Source: a virus (taxonomy: Duplodnaviria > Caudoviricetes). From it: a DNA stretch of 47,238 bases. The notes below the pieces were generated by a model. That model saw nothing but the letters and a program-made list of their open reading frames with translations, was not told the DNA's origin and did not search any database. Position 1 is the first letter of the stretch. Every line of letters begins with the position of its first letter. Position numbers and translations under genes: made by a program. The stretch is taken from the IMG/VR virus record IMGVR_UViG_3300029823_000002, positions 1-47,238 of that record; one strand, written 5' to 3'. Shown here piece after piece: positions 10,505 through 38,284 of this stretch.

Positions 10505-10810
10505 TCACCAAAAGTCATTAAGTGTTTCTTTCGCAGCTTTGTTGATCTTTTCTTTCTCTTTGTCTTCCACTTGTGTTTGTACAAATTGCGTAGTCTGTAC
10601 ATTATGTTGGTATTCGCCGATCATTCTTTCGAGTCTTGCAATCCGTTCCTCATACTCCGCATCCCTTTGCCCTTTACCTCTATCCTTCACCAATCGGCGT
10701 ATCGCTTCAGAGAAGGGGATTCCTTGCCTTTCGGTTTCTTCTAGGAATTCATTCATGTAAGCGTCAGAATCGGAATCCCACACGATGTTCTTTCGAATAT
10801 AATTAGGCAT
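10505..10810 (-). CDS. parR: ParR-like adaptor (ribbon-helix-helix plus coiled coil)
   Basis: N-terminal beta-alpha-alpha pattern ('RKNIVW...FSEAIRRLV'), translationally coupled downstream of the ParM-like gene. Confidence 0.65.
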   Translation of the reverse strand: MPNYIRKNIVWDSDSDAYMNEFLEETERQGIPFSEAIRRLVKDRGKGQRDAEYEERIARLERMIGEYQHNVQTTQFVQTQVEDKEKEKINKAAKETLNDFW

Positions 10811-11819
10811 CTTTCATCTTCGCCATAATCTCCTGTCCGAAGCAATTTGCCCAACGGCTTTGGTGAAGTCCTTGAATGTCATTGGTATAAAAGGCGGGTT
10901 TGAGATACGGAACTAAGACGGAACCTCCACCGCTGACTAAAACATGATTGACTTGTTTTCTGTCAGCTTCAGGGATTAACGCTGAGATTTGGTCAATGAT
11001 CTTGCCAGCGTGTTTTCTCAGAATCTCGGACGCTTCCGGAGCGATTAAATGTGTCATGTCACCGATGCGAATGCTCTTTTTCTCGAAGATGTCTTTCAAT
11101 TCAGCGATGTTGGGTTCGTAGTCGTATGCGTCATTGAGGAAGTTAAGCATTTCAATCTCAGCAACGTGCATTCCTAAGTCCCATGCACCCGAAAATTCTT
11201 CAATGAATCTTAACCCCTTGAAATAAGCAATGTTACAGGTCTGGCTGCCGATGTCAATTACTGCTACGTTATCTTTAGCAAGATCAGGCCGAACTATTTC
11301 AAGCGTATTCGGATCATATACTGCTGAGTACATTGCGCCAACACCTTCGGGCAGGACGCGCACATCTGTAAACTTGAAGCGGATTGTTTTGCCAGTATGC
11401 TTTCCCCTGGTGATCCTTACTTCATATGCGCGTAAAAGGTCTTGCTGGAACTTCACCTTGTTTTTTGAGAAGTCGCGTATGTTGTAATTGACTACTGCTC
11501 GGCCTTCCCAGTCGTTCATGTTGTGTTCAGCGAGAATAAAAGCGGTGCCTGCGGCGAGCTGTACTCTTGTGTGAGGATCGCTTGTTTTATCTCTTACCCT
11601 GACTTGCCGGTTAAAACGATCTTCATTGAGTGCTAATTCACCGATCAGGTATTCGCGCCCGTCATACTTGATCGCGAGGGAATCAATGCCGCCTTCGAGG
11701 TCGGGCATGCGAAACTCTTTGCCGCTTCCAACGGCTGCAGGAAAGGAATAAGTGTTATCGCCAAAAACAAACCTGCATTCACTTCTGCCTGAGTCTGATA
11801 CTATTCGGTTGATTTTCAT
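10803..11819 (-). CDS. parM: ParM/StbA-family actin-like ATPase
   Basis: Actin phosphate motifs 'DSGRSECR', 'VLPEGVGA', 'VIDIGSQTCN', 'VLVSGGGS' and 'WAN..G'. Confidence 0.88.
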   Translation of the reverse strand: MKINRIVSDSGRSECRFVFGDNTYSFPAAVGSGKEFRMPDLEGGIDSLAIKYDGREYLIGELALNEDRFNRQVRVRDKTSDPHTRVQLAAGTAFILAEHNMNDWEGRAVVNYNIRDFSKNKVKFQQDLLRAYEVRITRGKHTGKTIRFKFTDVRVLPEGVGAMYSAVYDPNTLEIVRPDLAKDNVAVIDIGSQTCNIAYFKGLRFIEEFSGAWDLGMHVAEIEMLNFLNDAYDYEPNIAELKDIFEKKSIRIGDMTHLIAPEASEILRKHAGKIIDQISALIPEADRKQVNHVLVSGGGSVLVPYLKPAFYTNDIQGLHQSRWANCFGQEIMAKMKDA

Positions 11820-11978
11820 TCATTCACCTCCATAACACAAAAGTCCATCAAGACAATTGACGGCATTAATGAGCGAATCATAGACTTCTTTTTCTTTACC
11901 GGCTGATAAATAATCTTCAGCATCTTTAAGGAAGTCCTTGGTTGATTTGATTGCTTCTTGTATTTCTTTTCGAGTCAT
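11820..11978 (-). CDS. Small hypothetical protein (52 aa), first gene of the par operon
   Basis: Own translation MTRKEIQEAIKSTKDFLKDAEDYL..., AGGAGG RBS. Confidence 0.6.
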   Translation of the reverse strand: MTRKEIQEAIKSTKDFLKDAEDYLSAGKEKEVYDSLINAVNCLDGLLCYGGE

Positions 11979-12011
11979 GCCTTTTACCTCCTGTTTCACA
12001 ACTTTGTTAAT

Positions 12012-12041
12012 ATTATACTACACTATTTGTCAAATAGTCAA
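12012..12041 (-). promoter_or_regulatory. Promoter of the par operon with the palindromic operator CTATTTGTCAAATAG (12023-12037) in its spacer
   Basis: TTGACT-N18-TATAAT and a perfect 15-bp palindrome. Confidence 0.7.
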
Positions 12042-12084
12042 GGCAAATTTTACTATTAACACGTCTGTAAGTTTCAACATATAC

Positions 12085-12120
12085 TGACGTATAAGTTGAC
12101 GTATTAGTTAACCTATCAAT
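12085..12120. repeat. Three 12-bp tandem repeats (candidate parC/iteron-like site)
   Basis: TGACGTATAAGT TGACGTATTAGT TAACCTATCAAT between the divergent par and ftsK operons. Confidence 0.45.
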
Positions 12121-12280
12121 GGGTTGACTGTGAAGGGGTGAGGACTGAAGTAATGAGATTTTACGCTTCGCCCGTTCAGGGTAGCATCTTCCGTGTCGGC
12201 AGGAATGTAGAAAGTGAGAGAGTGGGTCGGCGTGGGCATAGTTTCCACGAGAGGGAATATGCACCAAGGGAGGGGACAAT

Positions 12281-13501
12281 ATGGCAAAGCGTGTCGAGCC
12301 TATGGAGACTCCAGGGGTAATCGGCATGATAACATTGATCTTTGGGATCATGGCTGAAGTGATGAGTAGGGATCCGTTCTGGAGGTGGTTTTCATACGCC
12401 GCCGTGGGAATGATTGCATATCATTTTGCGCCTGATCCGCGCTGGAAGATAAAGACTTTGTTTAAGTCCTTGAAGCTATACTTCCAAGACGATGATAAGG
12501 ATTGGTTCCCTAGAATATTCGATGAACATGTACTTGAAAACGGTAAGGAGTATGTCATGACACTTCCTCCCGGCATATGCTCTGAGGATTTTAAGAAGAA
12601 CGAGCAAAGATTGTCAGAGGGATTAGGAGCGCACGTTGAAACGCGATACGAGAATGGAACCATCAGAATGAAGATCCTTGAAAACAAGCTCATGAGTAAA
12701 TACGATTATGAAGTCATCGAAACAAAGAATCCGGTTGAGATCCCTATTGGTTATGGCTATGAAGGGTTGCACACCTTAACGTTTAGCGATCAGGTTTCCG
12801 CTCTGCTTGTGGGAGGTTATCCCGGTTCCGGAAAGTCAGTGTTTCTTAGGCAAGCTATTGTTAATCTCATATTGACTAAAAGCCCTAGCGATTTACAGCT
12901 TTACCTTGTTGACTTAAAGAATGGTGTTGAGTTTGAGATGTTTAAAAGGGTTGAACATGTGGCCGGATTCGCCAAGAATGAATCCGAAGCGATGAAGCTG
13001 TTCAAATACCTTGAATATCTCACCGAAGAACGCTACAAGAAGCTGAGTAAAGCTAATGTGGTCAATGTTACTGAATACAACAAAAAGGGTAAAATGGATT
13101 ATCATTTAGTGATCATCGATGAGTATGCCAATCTCAGGGAAAACAAAGAGATCCAAGCAAAGGTTGATAAGCTGTTAAGGGTCTGTCGCGCGGTCGGGAT
13201 TTACTTTATTGTCTGCACCCAAAGACCTTCTGCTGAAACAGTGCCGGGATTGATCAAGGCAAACACTCAATCAGTGTTAGCGTTCGCCGTAAAGAATCAA
13301 GTCAATTCAAGGATCTTGCTGGACAACGATAAAGCGGCTGATATTGAAATACCGGGTCGCGCAATCTATCAGCAAGGGTCTAAAGACAAGGAGGTGCAGG
13401 TAATGTTCTTGCCTGATATTAAGGCGCGAAGACTGATCGCGCCCTATAACCGCAAGCAAATTCCGGAAGCAAAGAATAACAGGGGTGTTGAAAAGTGTTG
13501 A
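12281..13501 (+). CDS. FtsK/SpoIIIE-family DNA translocase ATPase
   Basis: N-terminal TM segments, Walker A GYPGSGKS, 'LVDLKNGVEF', Walker B 'VIIDE', 'CTQRP', 'PGRAI'. Confidence 0.9.
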   Translation: MAKRVEPMETPGVIGMITLIFGIMAEVMSRDPFWRWFSYAAVGMIAYHFAPDPRWKIKTLFKSLKLYFQDDDKDWFPRIFDEHVLENGKEYVMTLPPGICSEDFKKNEQRLSEGLGAHVETRYENGTIRMKILENKLMSKYDYEVIETKNPVEIPIGYGYEGLHTLTFSDQVSALLVGGYPGSGKSVFLRQAIVNLILTKSPSDLQLYLVDLKNGVEFEMFKRVEHVAGFAKNESEAMKLFKYLEYLTEERYKKLSKANVVNVTEYNKKGKMDYHLVIIDEYANLRENKEIQAKVDKLLRVCRAVGIYFIVCTQRPSAETVPGLIKANTQSVLAFAVKNQVNSRILLDNDKAADIEIPGRAIYQQGSKDKEVQVMFLPDIKARRLIAPYNRKQIPEAKNNRGVEKC

Positions 13502-14061
13502 CTAAAAGGGATAAGCAAATTATAAGATTCATTGAAGACTTTGGCGCGATCACCAGAAAACAAGTTGAAGCACTTTTCTTTAGCAACGTTAAATACTCTA
13601 CTTCTCTTGCAAACAAGCGATTGCTTAATATAATCAAGGAACCGTACATAGCGAGAAGTCGGGAACCCTATTCAAATCAATACATATATCACCTTAAAGG
13701 AATCAAGCAGTTAGAACACCGCATATTGCGTTCAGAATTTTATCTAAGGCTAATCACCTTGGGTGGTCAAATTAAAACGTTTGTGAGCGAATACAGGGCT
13801 TCAAATTTACGCGCCGATGCGTTCTGTGTTTACGAAAAGGACGGATTCCGCTATTATTTCTGCTTAGAAGTGCAAACGGAGAACAAATTGGACATAGATA
13901 AGTACATTGGTCTTTACGAATCCGATGATTGGCCATTCAAGGTATTTCCTAGGGTGGTTGCAATCACAGACCGTAAAATTGAGGTTGAAACCGAATTCCT
14001 CTTGTTCGTTGTCGGGAAAAATTTTGAGGGGTGGGACAAGATATTTAAAACATGTCCGTAA
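13495..14061 (+). CDS. Replication-relaxation family protein (wHTH plus PD-(D/E)xK)
   Basis: 'LT.RD..I..FIE.FG..T..Q', 'H.I.R.EFY', 'RADAF', 'LEVQ', 'KY..LY.S..W....FP' motifs, coupled to ftsK. Confidence 0.75.
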   Translation: MLTKRDKQIIRFIEDFGAITRKQVEALFFSNVKYSTSLANKRLLNIIKEPYIARSREPYSNQYIYHLKGIKQLEHRILRSEFYLRLITLGGQIKTFVSEYRASNLRADAFCVYEKDGFRYYFCLEVQTENKLDIDKYIGLYESDDWPFKVFPRVVAITDRKIEVETEFLLFVVGKNFEGWDKIFKTCP

Positions 14062-20970: not shown

Positions 20971-21027
20971 CGCAGAGTGACGGGGAGCAATCCCCGGTAA
21001 TGCGGAGGGCCGGTCACAATCCCGGCC
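20971..21027 (+). ncRNA. Twister ribozyme (circularly permuted, P1 closed by a loop)
   Basis: CGCAGAGUGA-C-GGGGA(GCAA)UCCCC-G-G-UAAUGCG...GGCCGG-UCACAAUC-CCGGCC. P2 is CGCA/UGCG and pseudoknot T1 is GUGA/UCAC. Predicted cleavage U20998^A20999. Confidence 0.85.
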
Positions 21028-21046: not shown

Positions 21047-21409
21047 ATGACAATGGCTGAGAAGTTTATGATCGCTGTTCGGGAATATGTTGAGCGCACC
21101 AACGAAAAATCTTATGACGCTATATGGGAAGATGTTGGCTTTAGAGAAAACGAATGGTTATTCGATGCGAAAACCTTCGATGACGACATCCAACCCAAGG
21201 TTTACTTTACGGACGGAACTGCTATAGTATGGAATGAATACACAGAGCAATTCGAGTATGCTCGCGCTGGAGAGAGCACCCAAACCTTCATGCGGCTAAT
21301 CCATACTTTCCCTCAGTTTGCAGGAAAATTCGTATTTGATAATCCCACCGAAGACGATCTCAAAAAGGCAATGAAGCACATCATGCGGAAAATGATTAAT
21401 CAAAAGTAA
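21047..21409 (+). CDS. Early hypothetical protein (paralogue of 22924..23109)
   Basis: AGGAGG RBS, shares the MTMAE start and 'F.DG...VWN' with 22924..23109. Confidence 0.7.
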   Translation: MTMAEKFMIAVREYVERTNEKSYDAIWEDVGFRENEWLFDAKTFDDDIQPKVYFTDGTAIVWNEYTEQFEYARAGESTQTFMRLIHTFPQFAGKFVFDNPTEDDLKKAMKHIMRKMINQK

Positions 21410-26173: not shown

Positions 26174-26332
26174 TTGCCAAAGACAACAACAATACGGATA
26201 ACTGCAAGGATGCACAAGGCGATGAAGGATCATTTAGAAAGGAGTTGCTGCCAGGGATACGGCGCAATGAAAGGATTCTTGGAAAAGGCTATTGAAAATC
26301 AGATAGCAAGAGAAGCCCCCCACAGGCAGTGA
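26174..26332 (+). CDS. Small ribbon-helix-helix-like protein
   Basis: GAGGGGG RBS before TTG, 'KTTTIRIT..MH..MK.H...FLEKAIENQ', followed by a terminator hairpin. Confidence 0.5.
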   Translation: MPKTTTIRITARMHKAMKDHLERSCCQGYGAMKGFLEKAIENQIAREAPHRQ

Positions 26333-26344
26333 GGGGCTTTTGCT

Positions 26345-26617
26345 TTACTCTACAACAATCCAATCTTCGGCAAGCATGTCTGTCTGCGAAGCCAGCCACG
26401 GCACGCGGCTTTTGGGCGCATCGGGGTTGGTCGTTTGCAGTCCTGTAGTGTCGATAAAGATGTACGGGGAGGTCATCTTGCTGTGTTCGTCCGGCCGCTG
26501 CAGTTCAACAAATATGCCCTTGCCGTTCCATCCCGAACGTGCGACCTTACAACCATTCTTCAGTCTTTGTAATGCTTCGGAAAAATCGAGATATGGATTC
26601 AGTGAACTACACACCAC
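26345..26617 (-). CDS. tad2: DUF2829 / Tad2-like anti-defence sponge protein, native start codon disrupted by an IS remnant
   Basis: 'DFSEAL..LK.G.KVAR.GWNGKG.F', 'PYI.I', 'VPWLASQTDMLAEDW' signature. Confidence 0.8.
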   Translation of the reverse strand: MVCSSLNPYLDFSEALQRLKNGCKVARSGWNGKGIFVELQRPDEHSKMTSPYIFIDTTGLQTTNPDAPKSRVPWLASQTDMLAEDWIVVE

Positions 26618-26740
26618 CTACGCTACGCTTAGAGGTGGGTGCTTCCTGCTCAAGTATACTTATGTACACAGTATCAACAGGCTATCCCCGTAGTTCCTAC
26701 GGTTGTTTATATTTATTTTACGCCGCTAATCCTAATATTC
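26582..26740 (-). ncRNA. TnpB omegaRNA scaffold plus predicted guide UGAAUCCAUAUCUCGAUUUU (5' boundary approximate)
   Basis: ACCGTAGGAACTACGGGGATAGCCTG...CAGGAAGCACCCACCTCT...AGGTGG..TAGTTCAC, typical of IS605 right ends. Confidence 0.7.
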
Positions 26741-26935
26741 TTATTCCTTCATCTCTTATATTCTTAGCGGCATTGTAATCTCTGTCAATTATTGCCCCAC
26801 AGCAAGAACATACCCATTCTCTTTCTGATAATTGTAGTTCGGAATATATATGACCACATTTATTACAAGTTTTAGAAGAAGGAAACCATTTATCAATTCT
26901 AATTAATTGACCGCCTTTATCTTCTAACTTATATT
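26602..26935 (-). mobile_element. IS200/IS605-family remnant: 3' end of tnpB plus right end/omegaRNA
   Basis: AT-rich insert ending ...GTAGTTCAC, preceded by TTTAA. Removing it restores the TAATG stop/start overlap. Confidence 0.88.
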
Positions 26936-26939
26936 TTAA
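26718..26939 (-). pseudogene. tnpB: tnpB C-terminal fragment (zinc ribbon plus RuvC III)
   Basis: LKYKLEDKGGQLIRIDKWFPSSKTCNKCG...REWVCSCCGAIIDRDYNAAKNIRDEG. No start codon and no N-terminal part. Confidence 0.9.
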
Positions 26940-27250
26940 ATCGCCCTCATTTCATTATTTTCTACCGGATCATATGTCTGCTCGAATATGTCCGGTTTGC
27001 AGGGGTAGAATTCGCCTTTTACGCCTTTGATGATCCAGTCTCCCGGAGAAGCGGTCATGTCGCCCTCCAACGTTGAAATCACTAAGCGCATCACGGGCGG
27101 CGCGACCCCTGCCTGATAAGCGGTATCAATAATGTCGCGGTGAAGTTTATGCCCGACAAAAGCATCAATTTCATCGGCATTGAATCCGTTGTATTGAATC
27201 GCCGCAACTTCGACCGGCCTTTTACGATAAAGCATTGTTGGGAACCTCAT
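26936..27250 (-). CDS. Conserved phage protein ('EGDM.ASPGDWIIKG..GEFYPCKPDIF' family)
   Basis: Widely seen phage motif set, function unknown. Confidence 0.75.
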   Translation of the reverse strand: MRFPTMLYRKRPVEVAAIQYNGFNADEIDAFVGHKLHRDIIDTAYQAGVAPPVMRLVISTLEGDMTASPGDWIIKGVKGEFYPCKPDIFEQTYDPVENNEMRAI

Positions 27251-37414: not shown

Positions 37415-38284
37415 TTACTTCACCTGCTTCTGACATTCTTTGCAGTACACGTTGCCAAGATATTTTTCAGGATGTGATTGACACCACTTGATCACTTCGG
37501 GAGGAACTTCTTTGCCGCATTTAGCGCACTTCGATTCATCAGCGTTAAGTCTGTCAATGTCGAGGTCGTCAAGTGAAAGGATTTCTTTTTTTGGCGGCTC
37601 ATCTTTGCTCGGTTCCGCGCCCTTTTCAAGCCAATCAAGCAATTCGCGCCCATGCGCTTCTGTGATTTTCTCGTACCGCTCATCCCACAACCCTGTACGG
37701 TCTTTGCTTGCGCTCGCAATGTGATTCTTTTGCTGCACGTCAAGGCAAAGCGTAAATTCGTAGTCAATGCCATCTCTCTGCTGAGGTGCTAAGCCAGCCT
37801 TTTCGATTTCCTTTTTACCGTTCTTCTCTGTCTGTAAATATTCTGTTTTGCTTCTCAGTGTGACAATGACATGGACGGGACTTTGAAGGATTGTTTCGAT
37901 CAATTTGTTGTGTCTCGGATTTACCTTTGACCAGTTCGCCCATGAATTGCCAGGCATTGAATCGTGAGTCTCCAATATGCCGCCTTCGCCAATCCATTCA
38001 TGAGTTAAGCTGTCAATGATGATAACGTCGTATTTTTCATTCTCAGCTTCTTTGATCATCCCTATGTATCTTTCGGGAGTGAACGGAGCCTTCAATACCT
38101 GAGTGTCAAACTCTGCGATGTGGGAGTAAAGGGAAAGGCTTTCATTCTCAGTGTCAATAGCGGCGATTCTACCACCCAACCCTTTAGCAATCAGCAACGC
38201 CGCCATGCTCTTTCCGGAACCAGATGGGCCGGTAATTGCAATTCGAGCTTTTGCTCTTTTCCTTTCCGCTCTTTGAAATGCCAT
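37415..38284 (-). CDS. Sak4-like AAA ATPase (single-strand annealing recombinase)
   Basis: 'F.RAERK.AK.RIAI.GPSGSGKS', 'IDTE', 'IIDSLTHEW.G.GG', 'YEF', C-terminal zinc finger. Confidence 0.85.
   Translation of the reverse strand: MAFQRAERKRAKARIAITGPSGSGKSMAALLIAKGLGGRIAAIDTENESLSLYSHIAEFDTQVLKAPFTPERYIGMIKEAENEKYDVIIIDSLTHEWIGEGGILETHDSMPGNSWANWSKVNPRHNKLIETILQSPVHVIVTLRSKTEYLQTEKNGKKEIEKAGLAPQQRDGIDYEFTLCLDVQQKNHIASASKDRTGLWDERYEKITEAHGRELLDWLEKGAEPSKDEPPKKEILSLDDLDIDRLNADESKCAKCGKEVPPEVIKWCQSHPEKYLGNVYCKECQKQVK

What the first reader, a model, noticed from the sequence alone, without database searches (positions are those of the whole stretch)
26582..26940. Orphan TnpB omegaRNA inserted exactly in the tad2 start codon, with a guide aimed at the empty allele
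Seen: deleting 26602-26935 gives ...GCGATTTAA|TGAATCCATATCTC, which restores a TAATG stop/start overlap and MNPYLDFSEAL. The insert keeps only the last 73 tnpB codons plus the right end (..GTAGTTCAC). The left end is gone, and the break lies at a TTAA microhomology with the target motif. Known: IS200/IS605 elements insert 3' of a short AT-rich motif that doubles as the TnpB TAM, and the guide is the DNA flanking the right end. Inference: this guide-only module could program a host TnpB in trans to cut sister phages carrying TTTAA-TGAATCC... (uninterrupted tad2), while this genome is immune because its TAM and target are separated.
Basis: partly seen in the sequence, partly recalled or inferred. 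Interest (0 to 1): 0.75.

Follow-up and report, generated by a model that had tools for sequence, protein, structure and literature searches.

The report
Truncated TnpB guide splits phage tad2
A 334-base leftover of a jumping gene, holding its guide-RNA part but no nuclease, sits inside the start codon of a phage anti-defence gene; sister phages without it and with a shorter version live in the same communities, so it is most likely a broken, immobile relic that would cut uninterrupted sisters only if the host supplies the matching nuclease, which is untested.

Summary
Observation confirmed to the base. 26602-26935 is the right-hand part of an IS605-type element: tnpB 3' end, intact omegaRNA scaffold, right end TCAC. 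It lies behind TTTAA inside the tad2 start codon. The predicted empty allele is in 7 of 7 public runs laid (5 studies). An intact parental TnpB exists (5 of 8 cluster members identical over the remnant), and TTTAA precedes the left end in 18 of 18 related elements. New: a second, shorter right-end-only allele (2 runs, one study) keeps the empty site's next three bases, the footprint expected of an empty-by-filled recombinant such as aborted homing (about 2% by chance). Against a working weapon: the empty allele coexists at similar depth, stands alone in 3 of 7 runs, shows no escape mutation, the parent element is not visible in two runs holding filled alleles, expression is unshown, and the host is unknown. 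Best reading: an immobile truncation relic that likely lowers tad2 translation, with possible incidental trans-homing. Gene-less omegaRNA remnants are known, and this scan noted several on other DNA; the allele series is what is unusual.

The parts
26602..26935 (-). Inserted right-hand part of an IS605-type element (334 nt), no left end, no tnpA
   Evidence: exact skip of 334 nt in 7 of 7 runs; no left end or tnpA in the genome
26936..26940 (-). TTTAA target motif / predicted TAM; its TAA is the stop of the upstream ORF and its last A is the A of the original tad2 ATG
   Evidence: sequence; TTTAA 11-15 nt before the left-end hairpin in 18 of 18 related elements
26718..26939 (-). Last 73 codons of tnpB (residues 302-374 of parental P0001: zinc ribbon and RuvC-III), no start codon
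   Evidence: PF07282 E 9e-21; 100% identity to P0001
26602..26704 (-). omegaRNA scaffold core (103 nt): nexus hairpin 26702-26688 whose loop pairs with the 3' end (pseudoknot), second stem-loop, right-end hairpin
   Evidence: alignment A2 and pair counts: 94.6% of cells paired, 14 of 26 pairs with change on both sides; fold z -3.3
26611..26642 (-). Subterminal right-end hairpin; its 3' arm holds a Shine-Dalgarno-like stretch
26602..26605 (-). Terminal TCAC, right-end cleavage site; its C now stands in place of the A of the tad2 ATG (CTG)
   Evidence: TCAC ends 12 of 15 rows of alignment A2; boundary fixed by the empty allele
26582..26601 (-). Predicted guide (first 20 nt outside the right end, = start of tad2); matches the empty allele directly behind TTTAA; no TTTAA-flanked match in this genome
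   Evidence: guide position inferred from known TnpB systems
26345..26601 (-). tad2 (Thoeris anti-defence 2-like sponge), frame intact, start codon split
   Evidence: PF11195 E 7e-23; Tad2/AcrIIA7 structures E 7e-14 to 7e-9
26936..27250 (-). Upstream 104-aa phage gene of unknown function (phrog_419), translationally coupled to tad2 in the empty allele
   Evidence: no match to solved structures by profile or fold
26782..26783 (-). Left break of the shorter sister allele (skips 26783-26935, one extra T): motif, then TGA, then insert from 26780
   Evidence: joint in X4 (8.96x) and X6 (2.7x)
26306..26323 (-). Terminator-like hairpin after tad2; none found on this strand between the upstream ORF and tad2
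   Evidence: consensus match only

Best explanation
This is the right-hand remnant of an IS605-type element behind TTTAA in the tad2 start codon of a phage; it most likely arose by a normal TnpA insertion followed by loss of the left part through short-homology recombination, leaving an immobile piece that likely lowers tad2 translation and would guide cutting of empty sister phages only where the host supplies the cognate TnpB. Steps: (1) inferred: a host element of the P0001 family inserted 3' of TTTAA. (2) shown: two left-truncated alleles exist, 334 nt and about 180 nt, with the same right junction. (3) inferred: the long one joined the target's TTAA to an internal TTAA of tnpB; the short one joined the left arm of an EMPTY allele (motif plus TGA) to a filled allele at a shared GA, as expected when repair of a broken empty allele copies in from the right and exits early (aborted homing), or from annealing by the phage's Sak4-like recombinase. 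(4) inferred: without a left end TnpA cannot excise it, so it is locked in. (5) inferred: it is transcribed as part of the operon, and TnpB could trim and load it in trans, but any drive is weak or rare. The scaffold is intact because the event is recent, not because selection is shown.
For: Empty allele exact in 7 of 7 runs. Remnant identical to 5 of 8 members of an intact parental cluster, so it is young. TTTAA precedes the left end in 18 of 18 relatives. Nested breakpoints with 4- and 2-base overlaps; contig lengths 394 and 239 nt fit the junction models exactly. The short junction reproduces the empty site's TGA in 18 of 924 random breakpoint-plus-one-base cases, 2%. A random left break in a 1.75-kb element spares the 103-nt core 94% of the time, so keeping the scaffold needs no selection. 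Empty alleles persist at similar depth (X2 6 vs 7.2; X4 8.7 vs 9.0; X6 5.5 vs 2.7 plus 3.8) with no changed letter listed in motif or target. Gene-less scaffolds are common: 4 of 18 viral loci with this core lack tnpB; 6 of 98 cellular loci were flagged as left-truncated (only partly checked). Sister phages drop tad2 altogether (skips of 619 and 888 nt), so its loss is tolerated. Sak4-like gene at 37415-38284.
Against: Filled alleles reach about half of the local depth in runs of 2014 and 2025, more than one expects of a costly relic, although strain abundance alone could give this. The short junction points to an empty allele broken just right of the motif, which is what active homing would leave. 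The extra T could instead come from the parent's left end: 1 of 18 relatives starts with TGA, 15 with C. No full-length element was seen at this site, so step 1 is inferred. Contig depth is not allele frequency.
Confidence: 0.6

Rival explanations
1. Working nuclease-free homing cassette: the phage keeps the omegaRNA because it recruits a host TnpB to cut co-infecting or superinfecting empty sisters, which are destroyed or converted; shorter versions arise and spread by the same route.
For: Intact scaffold and correct motif-guide geometry; intact parental nuclease; short allele looks like an empty-by-filled recombinant; filled alleles at high local depth 11 years apart; precedent for trans use of gene-less omegaRNAs and for TnpB drive and anti-self defence in plasmids.
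Against: Empty allele in 7 of 7 runs and without any filled allele in X7, X10, X12; no escape change listed in motif or target; the filled contigs of X2 and X4 run unbranched through the insert, so no parental copy is visible in those runs (filters and graph cleaning limit this); RNA run X12 holds only the empty allele; host not identified.
Confidence: 0.25
2. The piece is kept because it turns tad2 down or rewires it: it breaks the translational coupling and leaves a CTG start whose Shine-Dalgarno-like stretch is buried in the right-end hairpin.
For: Insertion splits the ATG; tad2 frame intact; CTG with a -7.1 kcal/mol anti-SD match against -6.1 for the native start, in-frame GTGs weak; sister lineages delete tad2.
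Against: TAA stops in TAATG overlaps supply TTAA motifs by themselves, so the position needs no selection; a clean deletion achieves the same and exists; the promoter-like site in the insert is at chance level (2 found, 2.0 expected) and is lost in the short allele.
Confidence: 0.1
3. TnpA itself made the long truncation by treating the internal TTAA of tnpB as a target and joining the left flank to it (adjacent deletion), rather than general microhomology recombination.
For: The long break falls exactly 3' of TTAA, where TnpA cuts (rule recalled, not from a call); an unexplained third junction in X4 joins the same flank to a different tnpB at the same codons.
Against: TTAA is frequent in such elements (15 in 1733 nt, 7 in 1407 nt); the short allele does not break at TTAA; the closest relatives have CTTAA there, not TTTAA.
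Confidence: 0.04
4. Assembly chimera between the phage and a multi-copy host element.
For: Metagenomic contig; multi-copy elements cause misjoins.
Against: A 394-nt contig spanning both junctions with 0 differences at 7.2x in X2; the same right junction in X4, another study, with a different left break.
Confidence: 0.01

Closest known systems
IS605-family TnpB/omegaRNA homing (Karvelis 2021, PMC8612924; Meers 2023, 10.1101/2023.03.14.532601; passages read)
   Same: Insertion 3' of an AT-rich pentamer that doubles as TAM; scaffold ends at the right end; guide is the right flank; the empty joint is the target; the filled site is immune.
   Different: No tnpA, no full tnpB, no left end; lies in a phage; competing allele is a sister phage, not a sister chromosome.
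PATEs and standalone omegaRNAs (Meers 2023 discussion; Altae-Tran 2023, PMC10691335; decay series in PMC7290912; passages read)
   Same: Gene-less derivative that keeps an omegaRNA and needs TnpB in trans.
   Different: PATEs keep both ends and can be mobilised; this keeps only the right end plus a tnpB stub, was seen at one site only, and has nested left breaks.
TnpB gene drive and anti-self defence in plasmids (Mears et al., 10.1101/2025.02.20.638934; abstract and one results section read)
   Same: A filled replicon cuts or converts otherwise identical empty replicons in the same cell.
   Different: There the element encodes its own TnpB and the replicon is a plasmid; the words phage, in trans and truncat do not occur in its main text.
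Virus-borne mini-CRISPR arrays (Medvedeva 2019, PMC6858448; abstract read)
   Same: Virus carries only a guide, borrows a host nuclease, and aims at a close relative.
   Different: Repeat-spacer units with a leader, acquired spacers and Cas effectors; here the guide is a by-product of insertion and can hit only the uninterrupted allele.

Membership tests
IS605-type element (IS200/IS605, TnpB-bearing), as source | TnpB C-terminal domain upstream of the right end | tested here: met
   PF07282; identical to P0001 residues 302-374
IS605-type element (IS200/IS605, TnpB-bearing), as source | Subterminal right-end hairpin and terminal tetranucleotide, no target duplication | tested here: met
   exact 334-nt skip with 0 shared letters
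IS605-type element (IS200/IS605, TnpB-bearing), as source | Insertion 3' of the family's pentamer | tested here: met
   TTTAA at 26940-26936; 18 of 18 related left ends; the parent's own left end not seen
IS605-type element (IS200/IS605, TnpB-bearing), as source | Left-end hairpin and tnpA or full tnpB in the element | tested here: not met
   none in the insert or the genome: it is a remnant, not a whole element
PATE | No intact protein gene | tested here: met
   only a startless 73-codon stub
PATE | Both left and right ends kept | tested here: not met
   left end absent
PATE | Copies at several sites (mobilised in trans) | tested here: inconclusive
   no record covers 80% of it in phage or plasmid collections; one site only in the runs laid; metagenomes not scanned with the insert itself
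TnpB omegaRNA | Three stem-loops with a nexus pseudoknot to the scaffold 3' end (PMC10690162) | tested here: met
   94.6% paired against 79.9% shuffled and 31-51% slid; structure drawn by me from the same alignment and the search pattern fixed the first hairpin, so partly circular; all 26 pairs form in the window's row
TnpB omegaRNA | Expressed and processed RNA | tested here: inconclusive
   only RNA run laid (X12, contigs) holds the empty allele
TnpB omegaRNA | Loaded by TnpB and guides TAM-dependent cutting | not testable with these tools
   needs an interference or cleavage assay
Guide-only viral weapon using a host nuclease (mini-array-like) | Target present in a co-occurring close relative and absent from self | tested here: met
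Guide-only viral weapon using a host nuclease (mini-array-like) | Compatible nuclease in the host | tested here: inconclusive
   intact parent exists in public metagenomes but host unknown and parent not visible in X2 or X4
Guide-only viral weapon using a host nuclease (mini-array-like) | Sign of pressure on the target (escape changes, exclusion) | tested here: not met
   no other letter listed in motif or target in 4 runs; empty allele coexists in every run holding a filled one
Tad2-like sponge (PF11195) | Profile match above the curated cut-off | tested here: met
   81.4 bits against 25; ligand not tested, and the family binds varied signals (abstract)

The most novel reading that the evidence does not exclude
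A phage carries a nuclease-free, non-excisable TnpB homing cassette that borrows the host's TnpB to cut uninterrupted sister phages, and the cassette shrinks and spreads by aborted homing, caught here as a natural series of empty, short and long alleles in one population: a transposon-derived counterpart of viral mini-CRISPR arrays, paid for with the phage's tad2 anti-defence gene.
Probability: 0.25. Interest if true: 0.72.

Novelty: new variant of a known kind. Interest (0 to 1): 0.42.

Why it matters
The role of gene-less omegaRNAs is stated as unknown in the literature read. Most such remnants cannot be tested because the empty allele or the parent nuclease is missing. Here the empty sister, two truncated alleles and an intact parental TnpB are all in hand, so a plasmid assay can ask directly whether a right-end-only remnant drives. 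The short allele also suggests a route by which one-ended remnants form (aborted homing between phage genomes). If nothing is cut, it is an ordinary young insertion scar in a dispensable anti-defence gene.

Tried and rejected
Rfam: no family on the insert. Phage and plasmid collections: only 60-80% relatives or short right-end matches, none covering 80%. Viral collection: no sister phage by left flank (1 chance hit), right flank (0) or empty junction (37 hits, none with tad2 or the upstream gene); protein scans gave distant relatives only. Metagenome scan with the left flank: 17 hits, 16 chance, 1 (L262) identical over 4578 nt and possibly the same data, not counted. Parent DNA not retrieved: best species-genome hits 71-74%, best viral hits 76%. 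Host not found: terminase, ParM and integrase searches; 112 genomes of one class and 285 scored of 301 of one family gave no match above 92% and no prophage or spacer (only 2 candidates scored per genome, so weak). Idea that the upstream gene is a second known sponge: no support from sequence, profile or fold search; no paper held the Atlas label with phage. Idea that the short break sits at the scaffold edge: rejected, it is 78 nt upstream of the core. Internal promoter: chance level. First DNA alignment A1 had one row in the wrong orientation and was replaced by A2. Missing cover of the insert in X7, X10, X12 shows no filled allele was seen, not that none exists. Reverse-transcribed omegaRNA as origin: considered, no support (no RT among the 50 ORFs scanned; precise TnpA-type right end explains it).

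Full report
Setting. The window is a complete circular phage genome (86-nt terminal repeat) with SU10-like portal and adaptor, terminase, a tyrosine integrase, an actin-like partition gene, DnaB, SSB and a Sak4-like annealing protein; it is probably temperate. Runs that hold it are mostly fermentation metagenomes. The host was not identified.

The observation. On the minus strand the 104-aa gene 26936-27250 ends in TTTAA. Then come 334 nt at 36% GC, then tad2 without the A of its ATG. The insert holds the last 73 tnpB codons (PF07282) and ends in TCAC. The downstream gene is Tad2-like (PF11195; solved Tad2 and AcrIIA7 structures). The genome has no tnpA, other tnpB or left end, and no TTTAA-flanked copy of the guide.

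The empty allele exists. I laid 7 of the 20 runs listed. All 7 (5 studies; one study may be the window's source) contain a contig that skips exactly 26602-26935 with no added letter. In X2 the filled allele is one 394-nt contig with no difference at 7.2x beside the empty one at 6x. X3 has low cover over the insert, X6 a piece 26753-26924 at 3.8x without the junction. X7, X10 and the RNA run X12 show only the empty allele. The viral and metagenome collections gave no further sister.

A second truncated allele. X4 (8.96x, empty 8.7x) and X6 (2.7x, empty 5.5x), one study of 2025, hold a joint 26782->26936 with one extra base. On the gene's strand it reads TTTAA, TGA, then the insert from 26780. 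TGA is the start of the empty site's right flank. A random break plus one random base gives this in 18 of 924 cases. The simplest single event is a join between the left arm of an empty genome and a filled genome at a shared GA. TnpB cuts 15-21 bp from the TAM (PMC8612924, passages), so a cut empty allele trimmed by 12 or more bases and repaired from a filled sister, with early exit, would leave this. Recombination without TnpB would too. A parent left end that starts with T is a third way; 15 of 18 relatives start with C, 2 with A, 1 with TGA.

Parent and motif. The remnant is identical to the end of P0001, a 374-aa TnpB in a cluster of 8; all 8 keep the three RuvC motifs and 5 are identical over the 73 residues. 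Seven lie on contigs of 1.4-2.2 kb, as multi-copy elements do. Their DNA could not be fetched. In related elements (L002, L296 and L001 at 71-77% identity to P0001) a search for the left-end hairpin that did not ask for TTTAA found 18 left ends, sorted by eye from spurious hits, all with TTTAA 11-15 nt upstream (tallied, where 18 of 20 matched and L010/L012 were seen directly). Several are close kin. In two pairs of copies from different sites the likeness begins at TTTAA. That this motif is also the nuclease's TAM follows from other IS605 systems and is not tested here. L296, L002 and L280 read TTC TTA AAA at the long break, which fits a 4-base overlap.

The RNA. The 103-nt core 26704-26602 aligns with 14 relatives. 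A structure of nexus hairpin, pseudoknot to the 3' end, second stem-loop and right-end hairpin, the layout described in PMC10690162 (passages), has 94.6% of cells paired and 14 of 26 pairs with change on both sides, above 500 of 500 shuffles and all slid controls. I drew the structure from this alignment, so the test is partly circular. All 26 pairs form in the window's row, as expected for a young copy. Both truncated alleles keep the core, but a random left break would do so 94% of the time. No terminator-like site lies on this strand before tad2's end, so read-through should cover scaffold and guide; TnpB trims 5' ends itself (PMC10278001, passages). No run showed the RNA.

Effect on tad2. 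The coupling overlap is broken. The start becomes CTG; an anti-SD match of -7.1 kcal/mol (native -6.1) lies in the arm of the right-end hairpin, and two in-frame GTGs have weak matches. Lower translation is likely but untested. Sister lineages lack tad2, or tad2 and the upstream gene (skips of 619 and 888 nt).

Results against an active weapon. The empty allele is in every run and at similar depth wherever a filled one occurs. One search lists no changed letter in motif or target. The filled contigs of X2 and X4 run unbranched, so no parental copy is visible there; instead a related element sharing 35 nt of the core is very deep (630-850x per contig, up to 1570x summed), and whether its TnpB accepts this scaffold is unknown. 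Contig depth is a poor measure, different host cells may carry different alleles, and filters drop records, so none of this excludes occasional homing.

How common. Of 18 viral loci with this core, 14 carry tnpB and 4 do not: two PATE-like, one lacking the right hairpin, one with no left end found. Of 98 cellular loci, 80 were full, 7 at contig edges, 5 without hit and 6 flagged left-truncated, partly checked. The scan's earlier notes list 12 findings of orphan scaffolds on other DNA, 8 shown, mostly read as relics; I did not test them.

Comparison. It works, if at all, like IS605 homing and like the plasmid drive of Mears et al. (abstract and one section); a review names co-infecting phages as a theoretical target (PMC13565253, passages). 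It fails the PATE test (no left end). It resembles viral mini-arrays in logic only (abstract). Five searches showed no paper on a right-end-only omegaRNA in a phage with its empty sister; the library lacks most subscription papers, Greek-letter spellings may be missed, and I read no supplements, where such cases may be listed. The TnpA guide-pairing rule and Sak4's tolerance of short homology are recalled, not from a call.

Verdict. Real, young, one-ended IS605 remnant; best read as a locked-in truncation product (0.6), with a fair chance of working as a borrowed-nuclease homing cassette (0.25). The co-occurring allele series and the available parent make it unusually testable. Interest 0.42.

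Noticed in passing
run X4, contig over window 26923-26965 (record 16): A 58-nt contig at 6.1x joins the same left flank and TTTAA to a different tnpB at the same codons (one base shorter); no matching right-end junction into tad2 was seen. The motif occurs in 6 fetched TnpB proteins. Unexplained: third capture, recombinant with a host element, or misjoin.
   Followed up: partly
window 20971-21025 +: Twister-P5 ribozyme (RF02684, 61.5 bits) ending just before the ribosome-binding site of ORF 21047-21409.
   Followed up: no
window 26936-27250 -: Very common small phage gene (about 990 viral stretches; phrog_419) with a confident model (pLDDT 86.7) and no Foldseek match in the PDB; lies near tad2 in 4 of 160 viral loci. 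Candidate anti-defence gene of unknown fold.
   Followed up: partly
window 26341-26961 and 26349-27238: Sister phages lack tad2 (skip 619) or tad2 plus the upstream gene (skip 888): a plug-in accessory slot before a terminator.
   Followed up: no
window 10803-14061: Actin-like partition gene, FtsK-like ATPase and Replic_Relax gene beside the terminase: a plasmid-like module in a phage that also has an integrase.
   Followed up: no
L260:2449-2594 (= L294): Complete PATE-like mini-element (TTTAA, left hairpin, scaffold core, right end) right after a major capsid-like gene of another phage.
   Followed up: partly
L289 around 2070-2260 of the reversed locus; L293:2201-2288: L289 keeps left end and scaffold but has lost the right hairpin; L293 keeps scaffold and right end with no left end found: further gene-less forms in large phages.
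   Followed up: no
runs X2, X4, X6, X12 over window 26670-26704: A related element sharing 35 nt of the scaffold core is extremely deep in the DNA runs (630-850x per contig) and present in the RNA run.
   Followed up: no
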